12,956 nucleotides of DNA from positions 1 through 12,956 of the IMG/VR virus record IMGVR_UViG_2778261122_000005; one strand, 5' to 3'. The notes under the pieces are model-generated. The model did no database searches. It was not told where the DNA came from and saw only the letters and a list, made by a program, of their open reading frames with translations. Source of the stretch: a virus. Its lineage: Duplodnaviria; Heunggongvirae; Uroviricota; Caudoviricetes. The first letter of the stretch is position 1, and each line of letters begins with the position of its first letter. A program made the translations under genes and the position numbers. Positions 1 to 7,421 of the stretch are shown here, one piece after another.

Positions 1-161
1 AGTTTGCTCCTGCCATAACGTGAAGAAGCAATGACCTGGTGGTCCGTGACTTCCCTACGCTGGCATTATCCAGATCAGGTGATACGGGTATTTCTTACTA
101 TTTTTTGTTATCAGTTGATAATTAATAAGTTTTTCAGCACAGAAGAATTAAAAACCTCAAA

Positions 162-231
162 ACTGACCACACAACTGACCACACATTTCGTTGAAGCTCT
201 ACGAACAACGACGAACAATAACAAACAAAAG
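162..231. repeat. Tandem 12-bp repeat ACTGACCACACA x2 (162..185) followed by 10-bp-phased ACGAACAA repeats (201..231)
   Basis: Direct reading of the sequence. A similar phased CGAACAA motif recurs at ~7321..7350 upstream of the plus-strand gene. Confidence 0.5.
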
Positions 232-272
232 GGAAATTTGCTGGCGGTTTTGCTTAACCGTTATCATTTTCC

Positions 273-358
273 GGCTATCCGCCATGAAGCTGGTGGATGT
301 TTTTTCTATGCAGATTTGCATAGTTCCAAATGAGGCTGGTAGATGATCACGGATAGCC
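273..358. repeat. Compound dyad element: outer inverted repeats GGCTATCCG / CGGATAGCC, inner direct repeats GCTGGTGGATG / GCTGGTAGATG, central 18-bp palindrome CTATGCAGATTTGCATAG
   Basis: Seen in sequence. Outer inverted repeats at ~273..281 and ~350..358, central palindrome at ~306..323. No canonical U-tract on either strand, so it is more likely a protein-binding or recombination site than a terminator. Confidence 0.45.
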
Positions 359-524
359 CGTTATGGGAATCCCCATATCGGCATCACGCCCACCAGCGCG
401 ACGCATTTTTTTTAATTTCGCGGGTGTAAAAATTTGACGAGGCGTGCGGTCCCATAAGCAATAGGTTGTAGGGATTTCGATCCCCCCTCCTGAATGCAAT
501 TTTTCGTATATATATACAAAACAG

Positions 525-680
525 TGCGGGTTATGCGGGTTAGCGGGTTATCTTCGCGTGCTAAGTATTTTTTATTCTTTAATATCAATGTGTTAAAAAA
601 CAACGTATTTAAATATCAGCCAGAATGTAACCCGCAAGACATTCAAAATAACCCGCAAACACCCCTCAAATAACCCGCAA
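525..680. repeat. Iteron cluster B (distal, crr-like): three contiguous TGCGGGTTA repeats, an AT-rich spacer, then three TAACCCGCA repeats at ~21-bp spacing
   Basis: Seen in sequence: (T/A)GCGGGTTA at 525..533, 534..542 and 542..550; AT-rich spacer ~551..627 preceded by a (TA)n run at ~507..517; TAACCCGCA at ~628, ~648 and ~671. Same 9-mer as cluster A, in mirrored arrangement. Confidence 0.6.
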
Positions 681-759
681 AAACATCCCTGAAAGTGGGT
701 GCCGGTAATACTGAAAATTTATTCCATTAAATGAGCATTGTCCTCTCTCATCCATTCCG

Positions 760-2421
760 TTACACACCATCAAACGCCGCAAGCCGCTCTTTGTGGCTGT
801 CGCTCATATCGAATGCAAATTCCTCATGCTCTGCCTGGAATGTGCCAAACGCCATCAGCGCCGCAACGCTCGGGTCTATCTTGTTGGATGATTTTTTCTT
901 GTTCGGCTTGATATTGGCGTTAGCGTCACTCTGCATCACAACATTACTCATTGACCAGGCCAGCACCGGATCACCACGATGCACAATCACCTTCCGGTTA
1001 ACAAAAACTTCGAACGATTTCGCCGCCGGACTGAAACGAAGGTATGTTTGCGGGAACGGCTCCACCTCAAATCCTGCCCCCTGTAGCTGCGTCCTCAGGT
1101 GCGTGGCGTTCCATGTATCGAAGCCCACCAGCCTGATATTGAAATTCTCTGCATCCGCCATGATGTCATCACGGATACGGTCATAATCAATGCAGTCACC
1201 CGGTGTTGTGCGTATCCAGCCCGCCTTTACCCACTGGCGATAGATGGCGCGGTTTTTATTGGCGGGGTTCTGTAGCTGAAATTCCGGCAGATAGTGACGG
1301 GAAACCAGCATAATCTTTTTACCGACCGGAAAGGCATAGCACACGCTGGAAATATCGCTGGTTGATGATAAGTCCAGCCCCGCGTAGCACTCCTGCCCGT
1401 ATAAATCCGCCTCCGCGAACGTTCCGGCGCACTCCGCCCATGCACCGTTACCCATCCACGGCGTAGCCCCCTGACACCAGATATTGAATCGCTTGGTGAG
1501 CATTTCCACCCACTGCGACGGAATACCCCGCGCTTTCTGGATGGTTGAGGCCAGTTTTTCACGATCGACGGAAACATCGATATTTGGATTCGCCTTTATC
1601 CACATCGCCGGATCGTCAACCTCGCTTTCATCATCCAGCTCGTAAATCAGAACGAACATGGATTCGTTCATCTCTTCACCATCCAGTATCTGACAGCAAT
1701 AGTCATAGTGTTGTTTACAGGCTGAAACAACGTTGCTCCCCGATGTGGTAATGGCAAATAACAGCCCTTCGGGACGTGCGCCCATCCCCATATCAAGTGC
1801 GGAATAAACCCCGTTGTCTGGGTGCAGGTGATATTCATCCACAATGGCAAGACTCGGGTTTGTCCCCTCAATGGTTGCCGCTTTTGCTGCCAGTGGCTTT
1901 AACAGGCTGTTGGTTTTCGGGTGTATCACCTTATGCGCCTGAATATTCACCCGCCTGCGTAACGGTCGGGATAAAAGGCACATCTGACGCGCATCATCAA
2001 AGACGATCCGCGCCTGGTCACGGCTCACCGCTGCGGTGTAGATATCCTGCTGACCGTTCTCCATAATCAGAAACCAGTTAGCCAGAATCGCGGCGGTCGT
2101 GGATTTCGCATTTTTGCGCGGCACTTCGATAAAGGCGCTCGTGTATTTGCGCCGTCCGGTGGCCTTAACCTTAAAGCCGAGGATGCACGCAAAGGCGAAC
2201 TGCTGCCACGGCTCCAGCTCAATGGGTCTGCCACGCATCGGTCCTTTTACGTGCGGACACACCCTGGAAAAGGCAATAAACCGCTCCACGACCTCCGGAT
2301 CGAACGTGTAAAGGGGGTTTTCAAGGTCAGAAAAATACCGTTTAACGGCCTGTTTCAGTCGTTTACAGGCCGTAATTTTGCCGTTTTTTACGCCTTCTGC
2401 GTACTCATGCCAGGTGGTCAA
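760..2421 (-). CDS. terL: Terminase large subunit
   Basis: 553-aa ORF whose sequence reads as a phage large terminase (ATPase plus nuclease). It lies immediately downstream of and overlapping the small terminase. Apparent TTG start at 2421, preceded by a GAGGAAGAGGA Shine-Dalgarno-like stretch inside the terS 3' end. Confidence 0.88.
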   Translation of the reverse strand: MTTWHEYAEGVKNGKITACKRLKQAVKRYFSDLENPLYTFDPEVVERFIAFSRVCPHVKGPMRGRPIELEPWQQFAFACILGFKVKATGRRKYTSAFIEVPRKNAKSTTAAILANWFLIMENGQQDIYTAAVSRDQARIVFDDARQMCLLSRPLRRRVNIQAHKVIHPKTNSLLKPLAAKAATIEGTNPSLAIVDEYHLHPDNGVYSALDMGMGARPEGLLFAITTSGSNVVSACKQHYDYCCQILDGEEMNESMFVLIYELDDESEVDDPAMWIKANPNIDVSVDREKLASTIQKARGIPSQWVEMLTKRFNIWCQGATPWMGNGAWAECAGTFAEADLYGQECYAGLDLSSTSDISSVCYAFPVGKKIMLVSRHYLPEFQLQNPANKNRAIYRQWVKAGWIRTTPGDCIDYDRIRDDIMADAENFNIRLVGFDTWNATHLRTQLQGAGFEVEPFPQTYLRFSPAAKSFEVFVNRKVIVHRGDPVLAWSMSNVVMQSDANANIKPNKKKSSNKIDPSVAALMAFGTFQAEHEEFAFDMSDSHKERLAAFDGV

Positions 2422-2761
2422 GCTCGTCCTCTTCCTCTGTTTCCGGTGGATTTCTGCGGCGGCTTACCGGGTCAAAACCCAGCAAAGAAGCCATTTTGAT
2501 CATTATTCTTTCTGCGTCAGCCTTTGCGCTCAGGGCGGGGTTTCTGCTCTCGCTGCCCTGACTGTTAACAATGCTGAAGCCGCGTGTCGCAAGGTCTTCG
2601 ACGGCTTTGCGGTATAGGGAGTAGTTAACGCAATACAGTTCCAGATTGCTCCAGTCGGCGGGGGTAAGGTCTTCCCGCCCGGAAAGCTGGCGCGATTTTT
2701 CCTTCCACTGCCTGACCGCGATTTCATCCAGGTAAGCGGGGGCTTTTGGTGGTCTTGCCAT
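2405..2761 (-). CDS. terS: Terminase small subunit (P27-type)
   Basis: Start set at the internal ATG (2761) giving MARPPKAPAYLDE..., the characteristic N-terminus of P27-family small terminases. The longer track ORF (to 2902) has an implausible N-terminal extension. Acidic C-terminal tail, stop overlapping terL start. Confidence 0.75.
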   Translation of the reverse strand: MARPPKAPAYLDEIAVRQWKEKSRQLSGREDLTPADWSNLELYCVNYSLYRKAVEDLATRGFSIVNSQGSESRNPALSAKADAERIMIKMASLLGFDPVSRRRNPPETEEEDELDHLA

Positions 2762-3049
2762 GTTCTTTTTTCGCCCAATTATTTTCAAAAAAATTCCCGT
2801 GCACAAAAATTTGAGGAGGCGGTCGGTGTCCGGCATGGACGGTTTCGTCCTGAAAACCTCCCCCACCCCCTCTGACGGCCTCACCAGCGATTGCGAAAAC
2901 ATTCCATGACCTCGCGGTCACGGTCGGTTAATCGCTTCGCTGTGGTGCGTTCTGTGCGCCCTGTCCTGTTGGCTTTGTGCTCTGTCTCCTGTGTCTTCCA
3001 TGTGTCACGCTGCCTTATCAGTCCACGTATCAGCCTGTTTTGCTCCTGT
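2762..3049. other. Putative cos (cohesive end) packaging site region
   Basis: A 288-bp non-coding gap sits exactly between the HNH endonuclease and terS, where HNH-associated cos phages place cos (established knowledge). It contains GACCTCGCGG (~2908..2917), identical to a 10-mer in lambda cosN as I recall it, plus GC-rich tracts (CCCCCACCCCC ~2858..2870). Confidence 0.4.
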
Positions 3050-3490
3050 TCAGTCATCATCGCCATACATCCAGTCGTTACGGTGTGCTGCCCGTTCTTC
3101 CTGATCGCGATACATGCCCGCCTTACGGTTCGCTTTCGTGGCTGGATCTTCCCGTGTCGTCTTACGGTTGTGGCACGTCTGACACAATGCCTGGTGATTC
3201 CACTCAGGCCAGAAGAGAACATCACCGCCGCCATTGATGGGGATAATGTGATCCACCACAAAGGCTGGCGTATAAATACCCTCAGCCAGACAACGCACAC
3301 ATAACGGATTTTTTTTCAGGTACATGGCGCGGTATTTGTCCCACTGTCGGGAATACCCGCGCGCGCGGCGGTGTCCCCGTCTGGCATCCTCTGCACGCCA
3401 TGCAGCCCGCCTGTGCTCTTCACACTTGCCGGACTTCACGCGCTTATTACAGCCCGGCTCAGTGCATCGCCTTAATGGTTGCCATGGCAT
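3050..3490 (-). CDS. HNH endonuclease (terminase-associated)
   Basis: 146-aa protein with Cys pairs and HNH signature (..VVDHIIPINGGG..NHQALCQTCHNRKT). Start overlaps the stop of the upstream connector gene. Typical position upstream of cos/terS. Confidence 0.85.
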   Translation of the reverse strand: MPWQPLRRCTEPGCNKRVKSGKCEEHRRAAWRAEDARRGHRRARGYSRQWDKYRAMYLKKNPLCVRCLAEGIYTPAFVVDHIIPINGGGDVLFWPEWNHQALCQTCHNRKTTREDPATKANRKAGMYRDQEERAAHRNDWMYGDDD

Positions 3491-3786
3491 CAGTACACCC
3501 CCACATCACGATAAACCGACCAGAGCGCGGAAATCGTCAGGGGAATTTCTTTTGTATCGGTATCGCCAAGCGTTGTCCGGTACTCGTACAGTTGCGAGAT
3601 GTACATCAGGCAACCAATTTTTATTGCAGGGGTAAATTCCAGGCCGTCATCAAAACGCCTGCCAATATGCTTCTGGCATACCTCCAGCGCCGCACTTATG
3701 TATGCCTGAATCAGTGTGTCTTCTGTGTTACCATCTATGCGGCAGTGAAGTTTGGCCTCTTCCAGGGTTATTTTTTCTGCTGTCAT
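3490..3786 (-). CDS. Head-tail connector protein (gp6-like, DNA-packaging family)
   Basis: 98-aa protein; N-terminus MTAEKITLEEAKLHCRIDGNTEDTLIQAYISAA matches the conserved pattern of gp6-like connector proteins. ATGA overlap with the upstream gene. Confidence 0.7.
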   Translation of the reverse strand: MTAEKITLEEAKLHCRIDGNTEDTLIQAYISAALEVCQKHIGRRFDDGLEFTPAIKIGCLMYISQLYEYRTTLGDTDTKEIPLTISALWSVYRDVGVY

Positions 3787-4121
3787 TTTTCTGTACCCAC
3801 CTTTGCCAGAATTTCCAGCCGGGTTCTTTTCGCATCAGGTAAGGGGATCCCGATGATATTAAGCGTGCTCCCGGCAAAAGCGCCGGTAAGCATTTTCAGG
3901 CGACTGGCGGCGGATATGTCGCCACGATAGCGAACCCATACCCGAATCGTTGCAGGTGCGGTTTCTGCGCCTGCGGTCAGTAATTCCCGTCCGCTGATCC
4001 CCTTGACCTCTGCCCAGATGGTTTCCCCTTCCGTCCATATCTGCTGGATCGCACCTGACGGCAGGCGCTGTGTGGTAAATGTCATAATCGTCACCCGGTC
4101 CCGCATCTTTCCGGCTATCAT
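3783..4121 (-). CDS. Head closure / head-tail adaptor protein (SPP1 gp16-like)
   Basis: 112-aa protein with the IRxWVRYRGDI..-type motif typical of head-tail joining proteins. ATGA overlap with the portal stop. An alternative ATG at 4106 is possible. Confidence 0.65.
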   Translation of the reverse strand: MIAGKMRDRVTIMTFTTQRLPSGAIQQIWTEGETIWAEVKGISGRELLTAGAETAPATIRVWVRYRGDISAASRLKMLTGAFAGSTLNIIGIPLPDAKRTRLEILAKVGTEK

Positions 4122-5341
4122 TCGTCACCGCCCTTACTGTTCTTGCTGATTGTCACTTCCTGCTTCCATGCCTGGCTGAACTCGTCGCCACCTTCACGCG
4201 GCGGCATTCCCTCACGCTCACGGGCTTCGTTCGGATTCATGATCCCGTTCTTAATCCCTTTCTCATACGTGGCGTAACGTTCGGTAGGGGTGGCGCGTAA
4301 TAAATCGGCTGAATCAAACTCAACCAGATAACGGGTACCAGGTACGGGAGAAGCCACCAGCAAAGCGGCCTTGATTTGCTGTTCGAAGTTCGCCAGCCAC
4401 GGGCGCATTGTCATGGTCAGAAACGCACGGCTTGCCTCGCTGAAATTGCTGTAGGTGCTGTTGCTGTATTCCTGCAGAAAAATAGGCGATACGTTGAACA
4501 TGCGGGCGATGTCTTCAATGGAGAAGCGACGGGAGGCCAGCCATTCCGCATCCTGGTTACTCATTCCCAGTTGCTTGTAATCCATGCCCCCTTCAAGAAT
4601 TGGCGTTTTTCCGGCATTTTTCGCCCCCTTGTAGCGTTCCAGAGCATCTAATGCCTGTTTACCTTTCACGCCGTCCAGCCATTCACCTGACGTGATAATC
4701 CCTGCCGCCATCATGCCATCTTTCATAATGCTGGCTCCGTGGCGCTGTTGAGCAAGACCAAGCCCCAGCGCCTCACGGCAAATCGTGACAGGGGAGCGCC
4801 CCAGAAAGCCATCATCCGAGGCATAGCGGAGATGCAGAACTTCTTCCTGTAAATACGTGCGCACCGTTCCTGTATAGGGTTCGGTGATGGTATAGCGGTA
4901 TTTGTGTGCGCCTGTGCGTTCCGGTACAACACACCCCGGCGCATAAGGATGAAGTGATTTTGGCTGTCCGTCCCGCCCCCACTCAATAACCGCATAGGCG
5001 TTACCGTTCAGCAGGCAGTGACGCATCATTGTGCGTTTAAACTGGTAAGGTGTCTGGCATGAATTAGGCTGCTCATTCAGCAGAATATCTACCGGGTGAC
5101 TGTCCAGCCATTCCCGCGCCTCTCTGCCCTTATCATTGCGTACAAGATACAGGTAACACGGCATCGTGGCCACCGCCTCAGAGATAACAGAAACCGCGTT
5201 CATCACAGCAGGCAATGATTCAGCCGTCCCGGCAGAAACATATTCTCCAGATCCGGTATTTGGTACGCCGGACAGCGCCAGAAAATCATCAATGGACAGG
5301 TTACGCTGCTCGCTTTTTTTACGACTAAAAGGCCACCACAT
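4118..5341 (-). CDS. Portal protein, HK97 family
   Basis: Sequence reads as an HK97-family portal. Start chosen at ATG 5341 (MWWPFSRKK...), one nucleotide after the protease stop. The track ORF start at 5431 is a TTG and would overlap the protease by ~90 nt. Confidence 0.85.
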   Translation of the reverse strand: MWWPFSRKKSEQRNLSIDDFLALSGVPNTGSGEYVSAGTAESLPAVMNAVSVISEAVATMPCYLYLVRNDKGREAREWLDSHPVDILLNEQPNSCQTPYQFKRTMMRHCLLNGNAYAVIEWGRDGQPKSLHPYAPGCVVPERTGAHKYRYTITEPYTGTVRTYLQEEVLHLRYASDDGFLGRSPVTICREALGLGLAQQRHGASIMKDGMMAAGIITSGEWLDGVKGKQALDALERYKGAKNAGKTPILEGGMDYKQLGMSNQDAEWLASRRFSIEDIARMFNVSPIFLQEYSNSTYSNFSEASRAFLTMTMRPWLANFEQQIKAALLVASPVPGTRYLVEFDSADLLRATPTERYATYEKGIKNGIMNPNEAREREGMPPREGGDEFSQAWKQEVTISKNSKGGDE

Positions 5342-5342
5342 A

Positions 5343-5903
5343 TCACAACCCCGCCAGCTCAGCCCAGCGATGACGATTATTTCCTGTCGGACGTAATTCG
5401 GGGTGCTGTGCAAACAACGAACGGTGGGCAATCTCCACGCCAGATTCTGGATAAGCAGGCATCGACGTTATTGTGATTTCTCGGAGTTCAGCGGCGGTTA
5501 CGGTACGCAGATACGGTTTTTGCGCGATACTCCACTCCTCGCATAATGCGCGAAAACCAAAGCTCATTCCTGTAATGTCGCCACGCTCCACCAGCGTAAG
5601 CACATCTTTTCCAAGCTGGGTATCCGGCGGTGTCAGCTCAAAACGTAACCCGGTGTTATCCTCAGTCAGTACCAGAGTGCCGGATTTGGTGCGCCCCAGC
5701 AGTTGGGTATAGTCATGCTCATACAGGCAGCGCACATCATTACCCGCCGCCAGATAGTCAGCAAAAGCCCCCGGCGTGAACTGTTCGCGGAATTCGTCCC
5801 AGATAATTTCTGAAAGGCTGTTCCAGCGAACGGCATAACCCACCAGCTTTTTATTGCTGGCGGTCAGTTCAGATGTGCGGATTTCAAAATCGGTGTTTTT
5901 CAT
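5343..5903 (-). CDS. Prohead protease, HK97 family
   Basis: 186-aa protein with conserved prohead protease motifs (GYAVRWN..., FTPGAF, ...HD..., TGMSFGF). ATG at 5903. Confidence 0.8.
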   Translation of the reverse strand: MKNTDFEIRTSELTASNKKLVGYAVRWNSLSEIIWDEFREQFTPGAFADYLAAGNDVRCLYEHDYTQLLGRTKSGTLVLTEDNTGLRFELTPPDTQLGKDVLTLVERGDITGMSFGFRALCEEWSIAQKPYLRTVTAAELREITITSMPAYPESGVEIAHRSLFAQHPELRPTGNNRHRWAELAGL

Positions 5904-5920
5904 CGGTGTACTCCATAAAG

Positions 5921-5950
5921 CTGAAAAAGGAGGCCGCAGCCTCCTCCTTA
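5921..5950 (-). terminator. Intergenic hairpin between capsid and protease genes (possible partial terminator / attenuator)
   Basis: 7-bp GC-rich stem AGGAGGC / GCCTCCT with a 4-nt loop at ~5928..5945, followed on the minus strand by a short U-tract (TTTTT). Sits directly after the capsid stop codon. Confidence 0.35.
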
Positions 5951-5957
5951 CTCATGA

Positions 5958-7127
5958 CTAGCCAGCTTTCATTTCCAGAATTTTGATGGCGTTTGAATCC
6001 ACCACACCACCGCCCAGATATTTATCCGTGTGGACCTTGTAGAATCCGGGTTCAGTAATGTTGTCCGGTCGGGTGCGAATCCCTGTTACATGATCAACGA
6101 TGAAATAACCACGACTGAAATCGCCAACCGCCAGCGGTGCTTTTCCTGCGCCGATGTCCGGCATGGACTCCAGGCAGTAAACAGGACGACCAAGCAACAT
6201 ATCCGGCGCACCTTCTTTAAGGCTGTCGCGCCAGATATAATCGCCGTTCTCATTTTTCAGCTTCTGTAGTGTCCCTGCCGTGCCCGAGTTCATCACCCAG
6301 ACGGCATTTTTGCGGTATTTCGCTTTCAGCTTGTAGAGAATGTCGATCAGTTCGTCCGCTGTAATGGCGGTTCCACTTGCCGCTACCATTTTTTCAATGG
6401 TGCCAAAAGCGCGGGTTTTGTCACTGGTCGCCGCACGGGTGTAAGCCATGAATCCTTTCGGCTTGCCGTTACCGTCGCCATTAACAAAATCATCCTCTTC
6501 GGTGCTGGCGAACGTGTCGGCAATTTCGGAGGATAACCAGCCCAGAATATCCACCTCTGAAAAATCCAGGATTTCCTGCGTGGTTTTCGGGTAGGCGTAG
6601 ATCGGATTCAGCTTGATGGTTACGCGTTCAATTTTCGGGGTGTTGGTTTCGCTGCGCGCGCTGCCTTCTGTGCCTCTTCCTACAGTTGCGCCGCCAGTGG
6701 AAACCAGTTTCTGAAACTCATTTGATTTTGCGGTCTTCACGGTCGCGATCACGCGCATAACACTGTCATCCTGTAGCTGGCGCATGACTTCGCGATCAAG
6801 CTCAGGAATTACGGTATATCCGCCATCCCTGCCGCTGTCAGTGCTGGTGGACAGTGATCGCACATCTCCGGTTACGATATAGTTACGCAATTCATCAGAT
6901 GATAATTTCTGGATACTCGTTCCTGGCTTGCTGCGTTCTTCATCAGCCACAGACTCGAGGCGGGAAATTTCTGTGTCGAGGGAATCGGCTTTTGCACGCA
7001 GTTCATCAAACTGTTTGCCTTCGTCATCGTTCAGGCTGCGGTTTTCACTGTCTGCTTTTTCCAGCAGGGATCGCATCTGGTTTTTCAGGGCGGTTTTTTG
7101 CTGGCGGAGTTCGATTAATTTCTTCAT
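5958..7127 (-). CDS. Major capsid protein, HK97 fold, with N-terminal coiled-coil (scaffold/delta-like) region
   Basis: 389-aa protein; the N-terminal ~100 aa are charged and coiled-coil-like (LRQQKTALKNQMRSLLEKAD...ELRAKADSLDTEISRLESV), followed by a region reading as an HK97-type capsid fold. First gene of the head operon. Confidence 0.85.
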   Translation of the reverse strand: MKKLIELRQQKTALKNQMRSLLEKADSENRSLNDDEGKQFDELRAKADSLDTEISRLESVADEERSKPGTSIQKLSSDELRNYIVTGDVRSLSTSTDSGRDGGYTVIPELDREVMRQLQDDSVMRVIATVKTAKSNEFQKLVSTGGATVGRGTEGSARSETNTPKIERVTIKLNPIYAYPKTTQEILDFSEVDILGWLSSEIADTFASTEEDDFVNGDGNGKPKGFMAYTRAATSDKTRAFGTIEKMVAASGTAITADELIDILYKLKAKYRKNAVWVMNSGTAGTLQKLKNENGDYIWRDSLKEGAPDMLLGRPVYCLESMPDIGAGKAPLAVGDFSRGYFIVDHVTGIRTRPDNITEPGFYKVHTDKYLGGGVVDSNAIKILEMKAG

Positions 7128-7421
7128 GAAGGTTTTCTCGTATTGGTTAAAATTCAGGACGTGAAACCAACACGGAGGGAGCGCCGCCCGACACTCTCGG
7201 CATCTCGCAGATCAACCCGGCATCGCGCAGGGGGTCAGGCGGCATTGTGGCGGCTCACGTCTGAGTGCCACACGCCAACATATACATAAAAATCAGTATG
7301 TAAACACCAGCAGGAAACACCGAACAACTACGAAAAAACACGAACAAAGAATTTACAAAACCTGAAAAAATAAATAAGCTGTTCCGTACATTTTCTGCTC
7401 GTTAATCAGGAGGAACGAACT
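7128..7421. promoter_or_regulatory. Divergent intergenic control region for the head operon (minus) and the plus-strand cargo gene
   Basis: A 294-bp non-coding region containing direct repeats CGGCATC(T)CGCAG (~7197..7232), an interrupted dyad TGTGGCGGCTCA-N3-TGAGTGCCACA (~7246..7272), phased CGAACAA repeats (~7321..7350), -35/-10-like hexamers TTTACA / TAAATA with non-ideal spacing, and a strong AGGAGG Shine-Dalgarno 8 nt before the ATG at 7422. Confidence 0.4.

What the first reader, a model, noticed from the sequence alone, without database searches (positions are those of the whole stretch)
760..7127. Complete HK97-type head and packaging module with no tail genes, typical of a capsid-forming satellite
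Major capsid, prohead protease, portal, two head-tail adaptors, HNH, and both terminase subunits are all present and translationally coupled, yet no tail, tape-measure or baseplate genes occur anywhere in the window. Combined with a primase and iterons, this indicates an element that builds its own small capsids and borrows only tails from a helper. This class has been described, so the novelty is moderate, but the identity frames everything else in the window.
Basis: partly seen in the sequence, partly recalled or inferred. Interest (0 to 1): 0.55.

Follow-up and report, generated by a model that had tools for sequence, protein, structure and literature searches.

The report
Capsid-forming phage satellite (cf-PICI) in E. 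coli

Summary
Window 760-7127 (minus strand) carries nine intact genes: major capsid protein (MCP), S78 prohead protease, portal, head-closure Hc1, adaptor Ad1, HNH, a 61-aa ORF, TerS and TerL. All named ones pass Pfam and PHROGs with strong E-values. The order capsid-protease-portal-connectors-hnh-terS-terL is the one published for proteobacterial cf-PICIs.

The MCP is 65% identical to PDB 9gyi, which I take to be the T=4 capsid protein of the prototype EcCIEDL933. It is at most 37% identical to any full-size phage.

Tail genes do not lie just outside the window. Window 1-95 is the chromosomal thiM leader. Complete relatives (97% identical, 15.3-15.5 kb between thiM and rcnR) add only AlpA, one unknown gene and a tyrosine integrase.

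Upstream lie a SaPI-Rep-like DUF927 replication protein, SSB and GCGGGTTA iterons.

Caveats:
- Coupling is broken at two junctions.
- No primase catalytic domain was detected.
- int, alpA and attR lie beyond the window.

Side findings:
- The island sits inside the thiM TPP riboswitch aptamer.
- A second iteron cluster lies next to attL.
- A 157-aa orphan cargo gene occupies the variable slot upstream of the capsid gene.

Verdict: new member of a known kind, low interest.

The parts
1..95 (-). Chromosomal flank: the 3' part of the thiM 5' leader and TPP riboswitch. The thiM start codon lies just left of base 1.
   Evidence: 100% identical to K-12 L003 4303-4397. The Rfam TPP score falls from 71.2 bits in K-12 to 36.8 bits here, against a gathering score of 54.3.
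82..95 (.). attL core ATACGGGTATTTCT
   Evidence: The same 14-mer flanks the complete islands in L001 (8082 and 23536) and L004 (18082 and 33344). It is the stretch of the K-12 thiM leader that appears at both junctions.
159..228 (.). 70-bp repeat also found next to the integrase end of complete relatives. It contains AACTGACCACAC twice. Probable integrase arm-type sites (inferred).
   Evidence: 97-99% identical to L001 23381-23450 and L004 33189-33258. Tandem repeat found by TRF.
526..678 (.). Iteron cluster b: three direct and three inverted GCGGGTTA copies around an AT-rich spacer, between the terL stop and attL.
   Evidence: Conserved in L001, L002, L004 and L005. L004 keeps it even though it has a different replication protein and different iterons beside that protein.
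760..2421 (-). Large terminase TerL (553 aa, TTG start)
   Evidence: PF20441 1.6e-52, PF03354 7e-26, phrog_9 1.6e-179. Matches PDB 6z6d 'Terminase large subunit' at 5.7e-43, recalled as HK97 TerL.
2405..2761 (-). Small terminase TerS, P27/Terminase_4 family (118 aa with the RefSeq-style start; the ORF is open back to 2902).
   Evidence: PF05119 8e-23, phrog_83 4.6e-38. Overlaps TerL by 17 nt.
2762..2880 (-). 119-nt G-rich intergenic stretch upstream of terS. Candidate cos region (inference only).
   Evidence: Sequence. The position corresponds to the HNH/terS junction where HK97-type phages carry cos (established knowledge). Not tested here.
2881..3066 (-). 61-aa ORF between hnh and terS, in the position of EcCIEDL933 gene 1792, whose loss severely reduces transfer.
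   Evidence: phrog_3173 3e-28. Annotated as a 186-nt gene in RefSeq relatives. The role of gene 1792 is. The correspondence is by position only.
3050..3490 (-). HNH endonuclease, terminase accessory
   Evidence: PF01844 1.9e-9, phrog_144 1e-44.
3490..3786 (-). Head-tail adaptor Ad1 (gp6-like connector)
   Evidence: PF05135 7.8e-12, phrog_40 1.5e-33.
3783..4121 (-). Head closure protein Hc1 (the paper's 'adaptor'); likely determinant of which tails fit.
   Evidence: PF05521 1e-18, phrog_25. 61-68% identical to Hc1 of HK97-like temperate siphophages. Connector and adaptor set tail specificity in cf-PICIs.
4118..5341 (-). Portal protein (407 aa)
   Evidence: PF04860 1e-92. Matches PDB 8cez 'Portal protein' at 1.1e-32, recalled as the HK97 portal.
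5343..5903 (-). HK97-family prohead serine protease (S78)
   Evidence: PF04586 6.9e-46, phrog_80 4e-60.
5958..7127 (-). HK97-fold major capsid protein (389 aa)
   Evidence: PF05065 2e-71. 65% identical (247 of 379 aligned positions) to PDB 9gyi, inferred to be the EcCIEDL933 T=4 capsid protein, with no gap across the paper's residues 227-248 (the 'connector loop').
7422..7895 (+). 157-aa orphan cargo gene in the variable slot upstream of the packaging operon, followed by a bidirectional terminator hairpin at 7899-7924.
   Evidence: No hit in Pfam, PHROGs, PADLOC or NCBIfam. 20 homologues, of which those with a source name are all Enterobacterales, found in other satellites. Absent from L001 and L004. 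AF2 pLDDT 90 with no fold match. Hairpin.
7931..8179 (-). Small conserved protein of unknown function (phrog_1957)
   Evidence: RefSeq homologue of 82 aa.
8225..8518 (-). PerC-family transcriptional activator
   Evidence: PF06069 3e-35.
8522..8947 (-). Single-stranded DNA-binding protein
   Evidence: PF00436 3.8e-16, phrog_44.
9012..9154 (.). Iteron cluster a: four GCGGGTTA copies at 21-bp spacing, an AT-rich spacer, then two inverted copies. Probable origin of replication just 3' of the replication gene.
   Evidence: Its position downstream of the replication gene matches PICI origins (quotes this).
9184..11310 (-). DUF927 replication initiator/helicase (708 aa), labelled primase by PHROGs
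   Evidence: PF06048 1.3e-46, phrog_1139 1.7e-174. Matches PDB 8tch 'Pathogenicity island protein' at 1.2e-14 and 5dgk 'Active helicase' at 0.0023.
11307..12473 (-). Early operon of small genes: DUF4222 (11307-11621), three phage-family unknowns (11628-11912, 11836-12048, 12041-12277) and an Icd-like ORF (12267-12473).
   Evidence: The Icd-like name comes only from the RefSeq annotation of relatives at the matching position; Pfam found no family for this ORF.
12585..12783 (.). Regulatory region: a leftward sigma-70-like promoter (12613->12585, 11 of 12 matches) facing a small rightward ribbon-helix-helix-like ORF (12608-12783).
   Evidence: The RHH match is weak (PF01402 E 0.059). This segment differs from L001, L002 and L004.

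Best explanation
The window is the thiM-proximal 12.9 kb of a capsid-forming phage-inducible chromosomal island (cf-PICI) of about 15.4 kb, integrated in the E. coli chromosome between thiM and rcnR.

Shown here: it encodes a complete, intact HK97-type head-and-packaging operon (MCP, S78 protease, portal, Hc1, Ad1, HNH, a 61-aa ORF, TerS, TerL). It also encodes a PICI-type replication module (DUF927 Rep-like helicase, SSB, iteron origin). It has no tail or lysis genes.

Inferred from the characterised relatives EcCIEDL933, EcCIGN02175 and KpCIDSM30104:
1. A helper phage switches on AlpA, and the island excises through its tyrosine integrase.
2. It replicates from the iteron origin.
3. Its own MCP, protease and portal assemble small T=4 proheads.
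4. Its own TerS-TerL-HNH complex cuts at an island cos site, probably just upstream of terS, and fills these heads with one island genome each.
5. Ad1 and Hc1 complete the neck, so the head can dock onto a long non-contractile tail made by a co-resident or external HK97-like/lambdoid siphophage.
6. The chimeric particle injects the island into a new host, where it integrates at the 14-bp core inside the thiM TPP riboswitch.
For: - **Profile hits.** All nine operon genes are intact, and every one with a named family passes Pfam or PHROGs strongly.
- **Gene order.** It is identical to the published proteobacterial cf-PICI order, 'capsid-protease-portal-head connectors' followed by 'hnh-terS-terL'.
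- **Prototype capsid.** The MCP is 65% identical over its full length to PDB 9gyi. That entry has 4 chains and 385 aa, matching the published four-MCP asymmetric unit of the EcCIEDL933 T=4 capsid. The stretch that the paper calls the connector loop aligns without a gap. This falls within the 50-90% similarity range the authors give for the family.
- **Satellite-specific capsid lineage.** Among 50,697 phage records only four reach 60% MCP identity. Two are 15-16.5 kb records, one is a 3.8 kb fragment and one is a 106 kb record. Every genuine full-size phage is at 37% or below.
- **Boundaries.** Window 1-95 is the K-12 thiM leader. Relatives L001 and L004 (97% identical across the head module) measure 15,454 and 15,262 bp between 14-bp direct repeats. 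Their remaining genes are AlpA (PF05930, 2e-16), an unknown protein and an Arm-binding tyrosine integrase.
- **Replication module.** The replication protein matches a solved 'Pathogenicity island protein' and Cch helicase. Iterons occur 12 times against 0.45 expected.
- **Tail interface.** Hc1 is 61-68% identical to Hc1 of real HK97-like siphophages, much closer than the capsid is. This fits a part that must match helper tails.
- **Abundance.** 423 IMG/VR loci encode relatives of this MCP. All 22 that I mapped keep the same gene order as far as the contig reaches, though some lack Hc1 or orf61.
Against: - The integrase, alpA and attR are not in the window. Their presence is inferred from relatives that are only 95-97% identical and mosaic.
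- No exact source genome was found.
- Induction, small capsids, cos cleavage and tail dependence are not demonstrated for this element.
- The MCP is only 65% identical to the prototype, so T=4 geometry is an extrapolation supported by the genome size of about 15.4 kb.
- That PDB 9gyi is the EcCIEDL933 capsid protein is my inference from its chain count, length and name, not a stated fact.
- The helper phage is unknown.
Confidence: 0.93

Rival explanations
1. It is a decayed HK97-like prophage (a cryptic remnant) that lost its tail and lysis genes by deletion. The head genes would be leftovers rather than a working satellite module.
For: The head genes are of phage origin. TerL and the portal match PDB entries 6z6d and 8cez, recalled as HK97 proteins. 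RefSeq labels them simply as phage proteins.
Against: - All nine genes are intact and have the same lengths as in dozens of independent genomes.
- The same element of about 15.3-15.5 kb is bounded by clean att repeats in different strains.
- It recurs at other att sites with other integrases. That means it moves as a unit.
- Its capsid lineage is at most 37% identical to any full-size phage.
- The gene order is the cf-PICI order, not the HK97 order terS-terL-portal-protease-MCP.
- The replication and regulation modules are PICI-type (AlpA, Rep-like helicase, DUF4222, Icd-like).
Confidence: 0.03
2. It is part of an ordinary complete prophage whose tail genes lie just beyond the window.
For: The window is truncated on the right (the integrase side), so about 2.5 kb of the element is unseen.
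Against: - On the left, terL is followed by 665 bp of non-coding DNA and then the chromosomal thiM leader.
- On the right, the genes already in the window are early, regulatory and replication genes. The window ends about 10 bp from where alpA stops in relatives.
- In every relative at this site the island ends with alpA, an unknown gene, int, and then rcnR.
Confidence: 0.02
3. It is a helper-embedded satellite (HE-PICI configuration) that lives inside a prophage late gene and depends on that prophage in cis.
For: Near-identical islands are embedded in a prophage. In L002 one splits a prophage terL. In L005 one sits among prophage packaging genes. The configuration is published (PMC10111431).
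Against: This copy is joined to the chromosomal thiM leader, not to a phage gene. The att arm 96-389 is the thiM-site type and is absent from the embedded copies, whose similarity starts at 389-392.
Confidence: 0.02

Closest known systems
EcCIEDL933, prototype cf-PICI of E. coli O157:H7 EDL933 (Alqurainy et al., bioRxiv 10.1101/2022.09.08.507074; He et al., bioRxiv 10.1101/2025.02.11.637232)
   Same: The same set and order of genes: MCP, protease, portal, two connectors, HNH, a small ORF, TerS, TerL. It has no tail genes. Its size is about 15.4 kb. Its left half is PICI-type (int-alpA-rep). The MCP has the HK97 fold and aligns without a gap across the 'connector loop'.
   Different: The MCP is only 65% identical. 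The attachment site, replication allele and cargo were not compared, because I could not locate the EDL933 locus. The helper and tail specificity of this element are unknown.
EcCIGN02175 / KpCIDSM30104 (cf-PICIs that release tail-less capsids and combine with tails from different species)
   Same: The paper describes the same pattern of variable regions: one before and one after the packaging operon, plus the connector/adaptor genes. Here the cargo slot 7371-7891 and the Hc1/Ad1 cassette vary between otherwise 97-99% identical islands.
   Different: No sequence comparison was possible because no accession numbers are given in the text held. Release of tail-less capsids is not tested for this element.
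Classical Gram-negative PICIs (EcCICFT073 type)
   Same: They share the int, AlpA, Icd-like, DUF4222 and replication gene layout and unidirectional transcription. At least one shares the same attachment site: ST131 strain 751 carries a PICI of about 11 kb at the thiM site.
   Different: Classical PICIs lack portal, connectors and TerL, and they hijack helper capsids. In SatelliteFinder those genes are 'forbidden' components for the PICI model.
Phage HK97 head and packaging module
   Same: HK97-fold MCP with an N-terminal delta domain and S78 protease, a PF04860 portal, gp6-like and gp7-like connectors, and an HNH-assisted TerS/TerL cos terminase.
   Different: The gene order is rearranged. There are no tail or lysis genes. 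MCP identity to full-size phages is 37% or less. The capsid is expected to be T=4 rather than T=7.
Helper-embedded PICIs (Mageeney et al., PMC10111431)
   Same: Sister copies of this island (L002, L005) lie inside a prophage, L002 within its terL gene.
   Different: The window copy is chromosomal. The embedded copies here are capsid-forming, whereas the published HE-PICIs are mostly classical PICIs. That paper does not mention 'cf-PICI'.

Membership tests
cf-PICI (capsid-forming PICI) | Own major capsid protein, prohead protease and portal | tested here: met
   PF05065 2e-71, PF04586 7e-46, PF04860 1e-92. All intact.
cf-PICI (capsid-forming PICI) | [quoted passage not shown] | tested here: met
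   PF05135 8e-12 (Ad1) and PF05521 1e-18 (Hc1).
cf-PICI (capsid-forming PICI) | Own HNH, TerS and TerL | tested here: met
   PF01844, PF05119, PF03354 and PF20441.
cf-PICI (capsid-forming PICI) | No tail or holin/lysis genes (forbidden components in SatelliteFinder) | tested here: met
   No such hit for any ORF in the window. The left end is chromosomal. In relatives L001 and L004 the unseen stretch of about 2.5 kb holds only AlpA, an unknown protein and the integrase.
cf-PICI (capsid-forming PICI) | Proteobacterial gene order: capsid-protease-portal-connectors, then hnh-terS-terL | tested here: met
   Coordinates compared with the description.
cf-PICI (capsid-forming PICI) | PICI-type replication module (Pri/Rep with an iteron origin) | tested here: met
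   DUF927 protein similar to a solved pathogenicity-island protein. Iterons occur 12 times against 0.45 expected.
cf-PICI (capsid-forming PICI) | Integrase and AlpA regulator at the far end; a specific att site | tested here: inconclusive
   The attL core and arm are present in the window (82-95, 159-228). The int and alpA genes lie beyond base 12956, and relatives have them immediately there.
cf-PICI (capsid-forming PICI) | Packaging-module proteins 50-90% similar to those of EcCIEDL933 | tested here: met
   MCP 65% identical to PDB 9gyi. The other proteins were not compared because the prototype sequences were not obtained.
cf-PICI (capsid-forming PICI) | Size of about 15 kb, fitting a T=4 head | tested here: inconclusive
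   12,861 bp of island lie in the window. Adding about 2.5 kb by analogy with L001 and L004 gives about 15.4 kb.
cf-PICI (capsid-forming PICI) | Helper-phage induction, small island-made capsids, exclusive self-packaging, dependence on helper tails only | not testable with these tools
   Needs induction, transduction and electron microscopy experiments.
Ordinary HK97-like temperate prophage | Tail, tape-measure and lysis modules within the same att-bounded element; 35 kb or larger | tested here: not met
Classical PICI (EcCICFT073 type) | Absence of portal, connector/adaptor and TerL | tested here: not met
   These genes are present. They are exclusion criteria for PICI.
Helper-embedded PICI | [quoted passage not shown] | tested here: not met
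   The junction is with the thiM leader. The feature is met only by sister copies such as L002.

The most novel reading that the evidence does not exclude
The attachment site of this island lies inside the aptamer of the thiM TPP riboswitch. Integration removes the native promoter and the 5' half of the aptamer from thiMD. It leaves thiMD directly downstream of, and co-oriented with, the island's packaging operon, with no terminator-like site detected between them.

If this has consequences, the satellite makes the host's thiamine-salvage operon blind to TPP and dependent on island transcription, reversibly through excision. It also uses a riboswitch core as a conserved landing pad in the way other elements use tRNA genes.

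The insertion itself is shown. The regulatory consequence is speculation. The site is probably among the PICI att sites already catalogued, since a classical PICI also uses it.
Probability: 0.3. Interest if true: 0.4.

Novelty: new member of a known kind. Interest (0 to 1): 0.25.

Why it matters
It matters mainly for annotation. The operon should be labelled as a cf-PICI packaging module, not as a prophage. That label sets expectations for everything else in the window: the origin, the early operon, and cargo slots that may hold defence genes.

cf-PICIs are abundant (found in 13% of Enterobacteriaceae genomes) and can cross species by combining with foreign tails. Each new allele of the Hc1/Ad1 cassette or of the cargo slot therefore says something about host range and accessory functions.

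Nothing here changes the current picture of the family. The riboswitch insertion and the second iteron cluster are small leads that can be tested.

Tried and rejected
- **Locating EcCIEDL933.** I fetched two 50-kb stretches of the EDL933 chromosome, guessed from gene numbering. They held other prophages only. I gave up, and the comparison with the prototype rests on the PDB capsid sequence.
- **Finding the source genome.** No complete E. coli genome or IMG/VR contig matches the whole window. The best cover 82-90% at 95-97% identity, so the element is a mosaic of known modules.
- **Mapping cos from contig ends.** The IMG/VR contigs have no terminal repeats, and their ends do not coincide with the hnh/terS gap. 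Most are provirus predictions. The cos location remains an inference.
- **Folding the truncated thiM leader.** Predicted Shine-Dalgarno accessibility is the same with and without the island (0.61 against 0.63). That says nothing either way.
- **Rfam at gathering threshold.** No RNA family was found in the window.
- **Cargo protein.** No family in Pfam, PHROGs, PADLOC or NCBIfam and no significant fold match. The afdb50 library was unavailable.
- **Long ORF 12267-12956.** I rejected it as a gene. Its middle is antisense to the small ribbon-helix-helix-like ORF, and only its C-terminal 68 aa correspond to the annotated Icd-like gene.
- **Gene transfer agent or P4-like satellite.** A GTA capsid is a distant PDB hit. 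However, the element has its own attachment site and origin, with an integrase in relatives, and no P4-type genes were hit.

Full report
**1. What is in the sequence**

All substantial genes but two lie on the minus strand. Reading in the direction of transcription, from high to low coordinates, the finding's interval holds nine genes:

| Gene | Coordinates |
|---|---|
| Major capsid protein (MCP) | 7127-5958 |
| S78 prohead protease | 5903-5343 |
| Portal | 5341-4118 |
| Head closure Hc1 | 4121-3783 |
| gp6-like adaptor Ad1 | 3786-3490 |
| HNH endonuclease | 3490-3050 |
| 61-aa ORF | 3066-2881 |
| P27-family TerS | 2761-2405 |
| TerL | 2421-760 |

Each named protein passes its Pfam gathering threshold by a wide margin and hits the matching PHROG. 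The 61-aa ORF hits phrog_3173. None has an internal stop.

TerL and the portal match PDB entries 6z6d (5.7e-43) and 8cez (1.1e-32), which I recall as the HK97 proteins.

**2. Details that need correcting**

Tight junctions link protease->portal (1-nt gap), portal->Hc1 (4-nt overlap), Hc1->Ad1 (4-nt overlap), Ad1->HNH (1-nt overlap), HNH->orf61 (17-nt overlap) and TerS->TerL (17-nt overlap).

MCP->protease has a 54-nt gap. orf61->TerS has a 119-nt gap with the start that RefSeq uses for homologues.

The 'primase' (9184-11310) is a DUF927 protein. PHROGs calls it a DNA primase. Its closest solved relatives are a 'Pathogenicity island protein', 8tch (1.2e-14), and the SCCmec Cch helicase. No primase catalytic domain was detected. 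It is safer to call it a PICI-type replication initiator/helicase.

The iterons are real. GCGGGTTA occurs 12 times against 0.45 expected, and every copy lies in one of two clusters.

**3. No tail genes, inside or just outside**

The other ORFs in the window are listed below.

| Coordinates | ORF |
|---|---|
| 8522-8947 | SSB |
| 8225-8518 | PerC-family regulator |
| 11307-11621 | DUF4222 |
| 7931-8179, 11628-11912, 11836-12048, 12041-12277 | Four small proteins of phage families with unknown function |
| 12267-12473 | Icd-like ORF, named only from the RefSeq annotation of relatives |
| 12608-12783 | Small rightward ribbon-helix-helix-like ORF |
| 7422-7895 | 157-aa orphan |

None matches a tail, tape-measure, baseplate, holin or lysin family.

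On the left, terL is followed by 665 bp of non-coding DNA. Window 1-95 is then 100% identical to the K-12 thiM leader. No phage genes can follow terL.

On the right, the window stops about 10 bp short of where alpA ends in relatives.

Two complete relatives at the same site were examined: CREC-2 (L001) and CEA106S (L004). L004 is 97.4% identical over window 1-7370. In both, the island measures 15,454 or 15,262 bp between 14-bp direct repeats and lies between thiM and rcnR. Its remaining genes are an AlpA-family regulator (PF05930, 2e-16), an unknown protein of 239-264 aa, and a tyrosine integrase with an Arm-binding domain.

By analogy, this element is about 15.4 kb long.

**4. What it is**

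The gene content, the order and the size match the capsid-forming PICIs described by Alqurainy et al. [quoted passage not shown] It has no tail genes. In Proteobacteria the order is capsid-protease-portal-connectors followed by hnh-terS-terL.

That paper also reports a small hypothetical gene (1792) in the EcCIEDL933 packaging module whose loss severely reduces transfer. By the paper's gene numbering it should lie between hnh and terS, and the window has a conserved 61-aa ORF in that position.

The window's MCP aligns over its full length with PDB 9gyi at 65% identity. I infer that 9gyi is the EcCIEDL933 capsid protein. It is named 'Major head protein', has 385 aa and has 4 chains, matching the four-MCP asymmetric unit of the published T=4 capsid of 47.5 nm. 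The alignment has no gap across the paper's residues 227-248, the 'connector loop' that the authors propose sets the small-capsid geometry.

Against 50,697 phage records, only four reach 60% MCP identity. Two are 15-16.5 kb records deposited as phages, one is a 3.8 kb fragment and one is a 106 kb record. Every genuine full-size phage is at 37% or below. This reproduces the published observation that cf-PICI capsid genes form lineages distinct from phages.

Hc1 behaves differently. It is 61-68% identical to Hc1 of real HK97-like temperate siphophages of Klebsiella and Escherichia. It is 61% identical to the Hc1 of the prophage in which a sister island is embedded. This fits experiments showing that the connector and adaptor proteins decide which tails a cf-PICI head can take.

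IMG/VR holds 423 loci with relatives of this MCP. All 22 that I mapped keep the same gene order as far as the contig reaches, although some lack Hc1 or orf61.

**5. How it most likely works**

Shown here:
- A complete and intact head and packaging gene set.
- A PICI-type replication module.
- An attachment junction.
- No tail or lysis genes.

Inferred from the characterised relatives:
1. A helper phage induces AlpA.
2. The island excises and replicates from its iteron origin.
3. Its own proteins build T=4 proheads.
4. Its TerS-TerL-HNH complex cuts an island cos site and packages single genomes.
5. Ad1 and Hc1 close the neck.
6. Tails come from a siphophage, either in the same cell or after lysis as free tails.

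The 119-nt G-rich gap upstream of terS (2762-2880) is my candidate for cos, by analogy with HK97-type phages. This is untested.

**6. Rivals**

- **Decayed prophage.** This is contradicted by intactness, by recurrence of the same unit of about 15.3-15.5 kb with clean att repeats, by its presence at other att sites with other integrases, by the satellite-specific capsid lineage, and by the non-HK97 gene order.
- **Complete prophage continuing outside the window.** This is excluded on the left by the sequence itself. On the right it is very unlikely, given the relatives.
- **Helper-embedded configuration.** This exists for sister copies but not for this one.

**7. Mosaic structure**

No database entry matches the whole window.

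- The head module and the attL arm resemble CEA106S. That strain has a different replication protein (similar only in the N-terminal 140 aa) with different iterons (GGTGAACAGT) beside it.
- The replication and early region resembles CREC-2 and NRZ106056.
- Segments 7371-7891 and about 12540-12852 are not shared with L001, L002 or L004.

This agrees with the variable regions published for cf-PICIs: before and after the packaging operon, and in the connector genes.

**8. Things noticed on the way**

(a) **Riboswitch insertion.** The attachment core ATACGGGTATTTCT lies inside the thiM TPP riboswitch aptamer. The K-12 leader scores 71.2 bits with Rfam's TPP model. The window's junction scores 36.8, below the gathering score of 54.3, because the 5' half is island DNA. 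The native promoter and the 5' half of the aptamer end up about 15 kb away on the rcnR side. No terminator-like site was found on the minus strand between terL and thiM.

76 of 5,426 complete E. coli genomes carry this island-side arm. In ST131 strain 751 the occupant is a classical PICI of about 11 kb, so PICIs and cf-PICIs share the site, as the family paper says of four of its six sites. I found no paper linking PICIs with thiM or a riboswitch.

(b) **Second iteron cluster.** A second cluster with origin-like architecture lies next to attL (526-678). It is conserved even in CEA106S, where the replication module has been swapped.

(c) **Cargo gene.** The 157-aa protein gives a confident all-alpha model (pLDDT 90) with no fold match. 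Its 20 homologues, where a source names the organism, are all Enterobacterales. They sit in the same slot of other satellites.

(d) **Embedded sister copies.** In L002 a sister copy splits a prophage terL. In L005 another sits among prophage packaging genes.

(e) **Single-connector variant.** Some islands with MCP, portal, HNH and TerS about 96-100% identical carry one 99-aa Ad1-like gene in place of the Hc1 plus Ad1 pair.

**9. Verdict**

This is a new, mosaic member of a known and abundant class. A specialist would not be surprised. Interest is 0.25.

Noticed in passing
window 1-169 (core 82-95); L001 8082-8095 and 23536-23549; L003 4337-4433: The island is integrated inside the aptamer of the thiM TPP riboswitch. 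thiM keeps only the 3' part of the aptamer (Rfam 36.8 bits against 71.2 in K-12; gathering score 54.3) and loses its native promoter. It lies co-oriented downstream of terL with no terminator-like site between them. 76 of 5,426 complete E. coli genomes carry the same island-side arm. I found no paper mentioning this.
   Followed up: partly
window 526-678 (compare 9012-9154): A second, origin-like cluster of the same GCGGGTTA iterons (three direct, an AT-rich spacer, three inverted) sits between the terL stop and attL, 8.3 kb from the cluster beside the replication gene. It is conserved in L001, L002 and L005. It is also conserved in L004, whose replication protein and adjacent iterons (GGTGAACAGT) are different. 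Its function is unknown: a second origin, a handcuffing site or a relic.
   Followed up: partly
[not shown]
   Followed up: partly
L002 7115-24391 (E. coli NRZ106056); L005 (E. coli CP042627.1); L006 (Raoultella planticola): In L002 a near-identical cf-PICI with a different integrase splits the terL gene of an HK97-like prophage. In L005 a sister cf-PICI sits among prophage packaging genes. In L006 a different satellite abuts a prophage portal gene. This is the published helper-embedded configuration, here seen for a capsid-forming island. The host prophage in L002 looks degraded (IS66 insertion, truncated tail gene).
   Followed up: partly
window 3490-4121 against L005 6444-6743, L010, L013, L014, L027, L029, L032: Islands whose MCP, portal, HNH and TerS are about 96-100% identical to the window's carry a single 99-aa Ad1-like gene (56-59% identical) between portal and HNH, in place of the Hc1 plus Ad1 pair. 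Either they have no head-closure gene or a very different one. This is probably a swap of tail specificity.
   Followed up: partly
window 159-228 and L001 23381-23450 / L004 33189-33258: A 70-bp direct repeat containing AACTGACCACAC twice lies 60-85 bp inside both island ends. It would therefore flank the core in attP. These are probably arm-type binding sites for the integrase, which has an Arm-DNA-binding domain.
   Followed up: no
window 12540-12956: The regulatory segment between alpA (just outside the window) and the early operon differs from that of L001, L002 and L004. It holds a small rightward ribbon-helix-helix-like ORF (12608-12783) whose start overlaps a strong leftward promoter-like site (TTGACA-17-AATAAT, 12613->12585). 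A rightward terminator hairpin lies at 12920-12939. It may be a repressor/operator switch, in a family where no master repressor is known.
   Followed up: no
window 8225-8518: A PerC-family transcriptional activator (PF06069, 3e-35) sits between SSB and the packaging operon. It could activate the late operon or act on host virulence genes, as PerC/Pch proteins do.
   Followed up: no
L090 17000-28200 (E. coli ST131 strain 751): The same thiM-riboswitch site holds a classical PICI of about 11 kb in ST131. It carries int, an HTH regulator, a primase, a capsid-protease fusion and DUF1441. The first 299 bp of the junction are 97% identical to the window.
   Followed up: partly
window 465-492: The sequence GGGGGGATCGAAATCCCTACAACC resembles a tRNA T-arm and 3' end. 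It may be a relic of an earlier tRNA-type attachment module. ARAGORN finds no tRNA.
   Followed up: no
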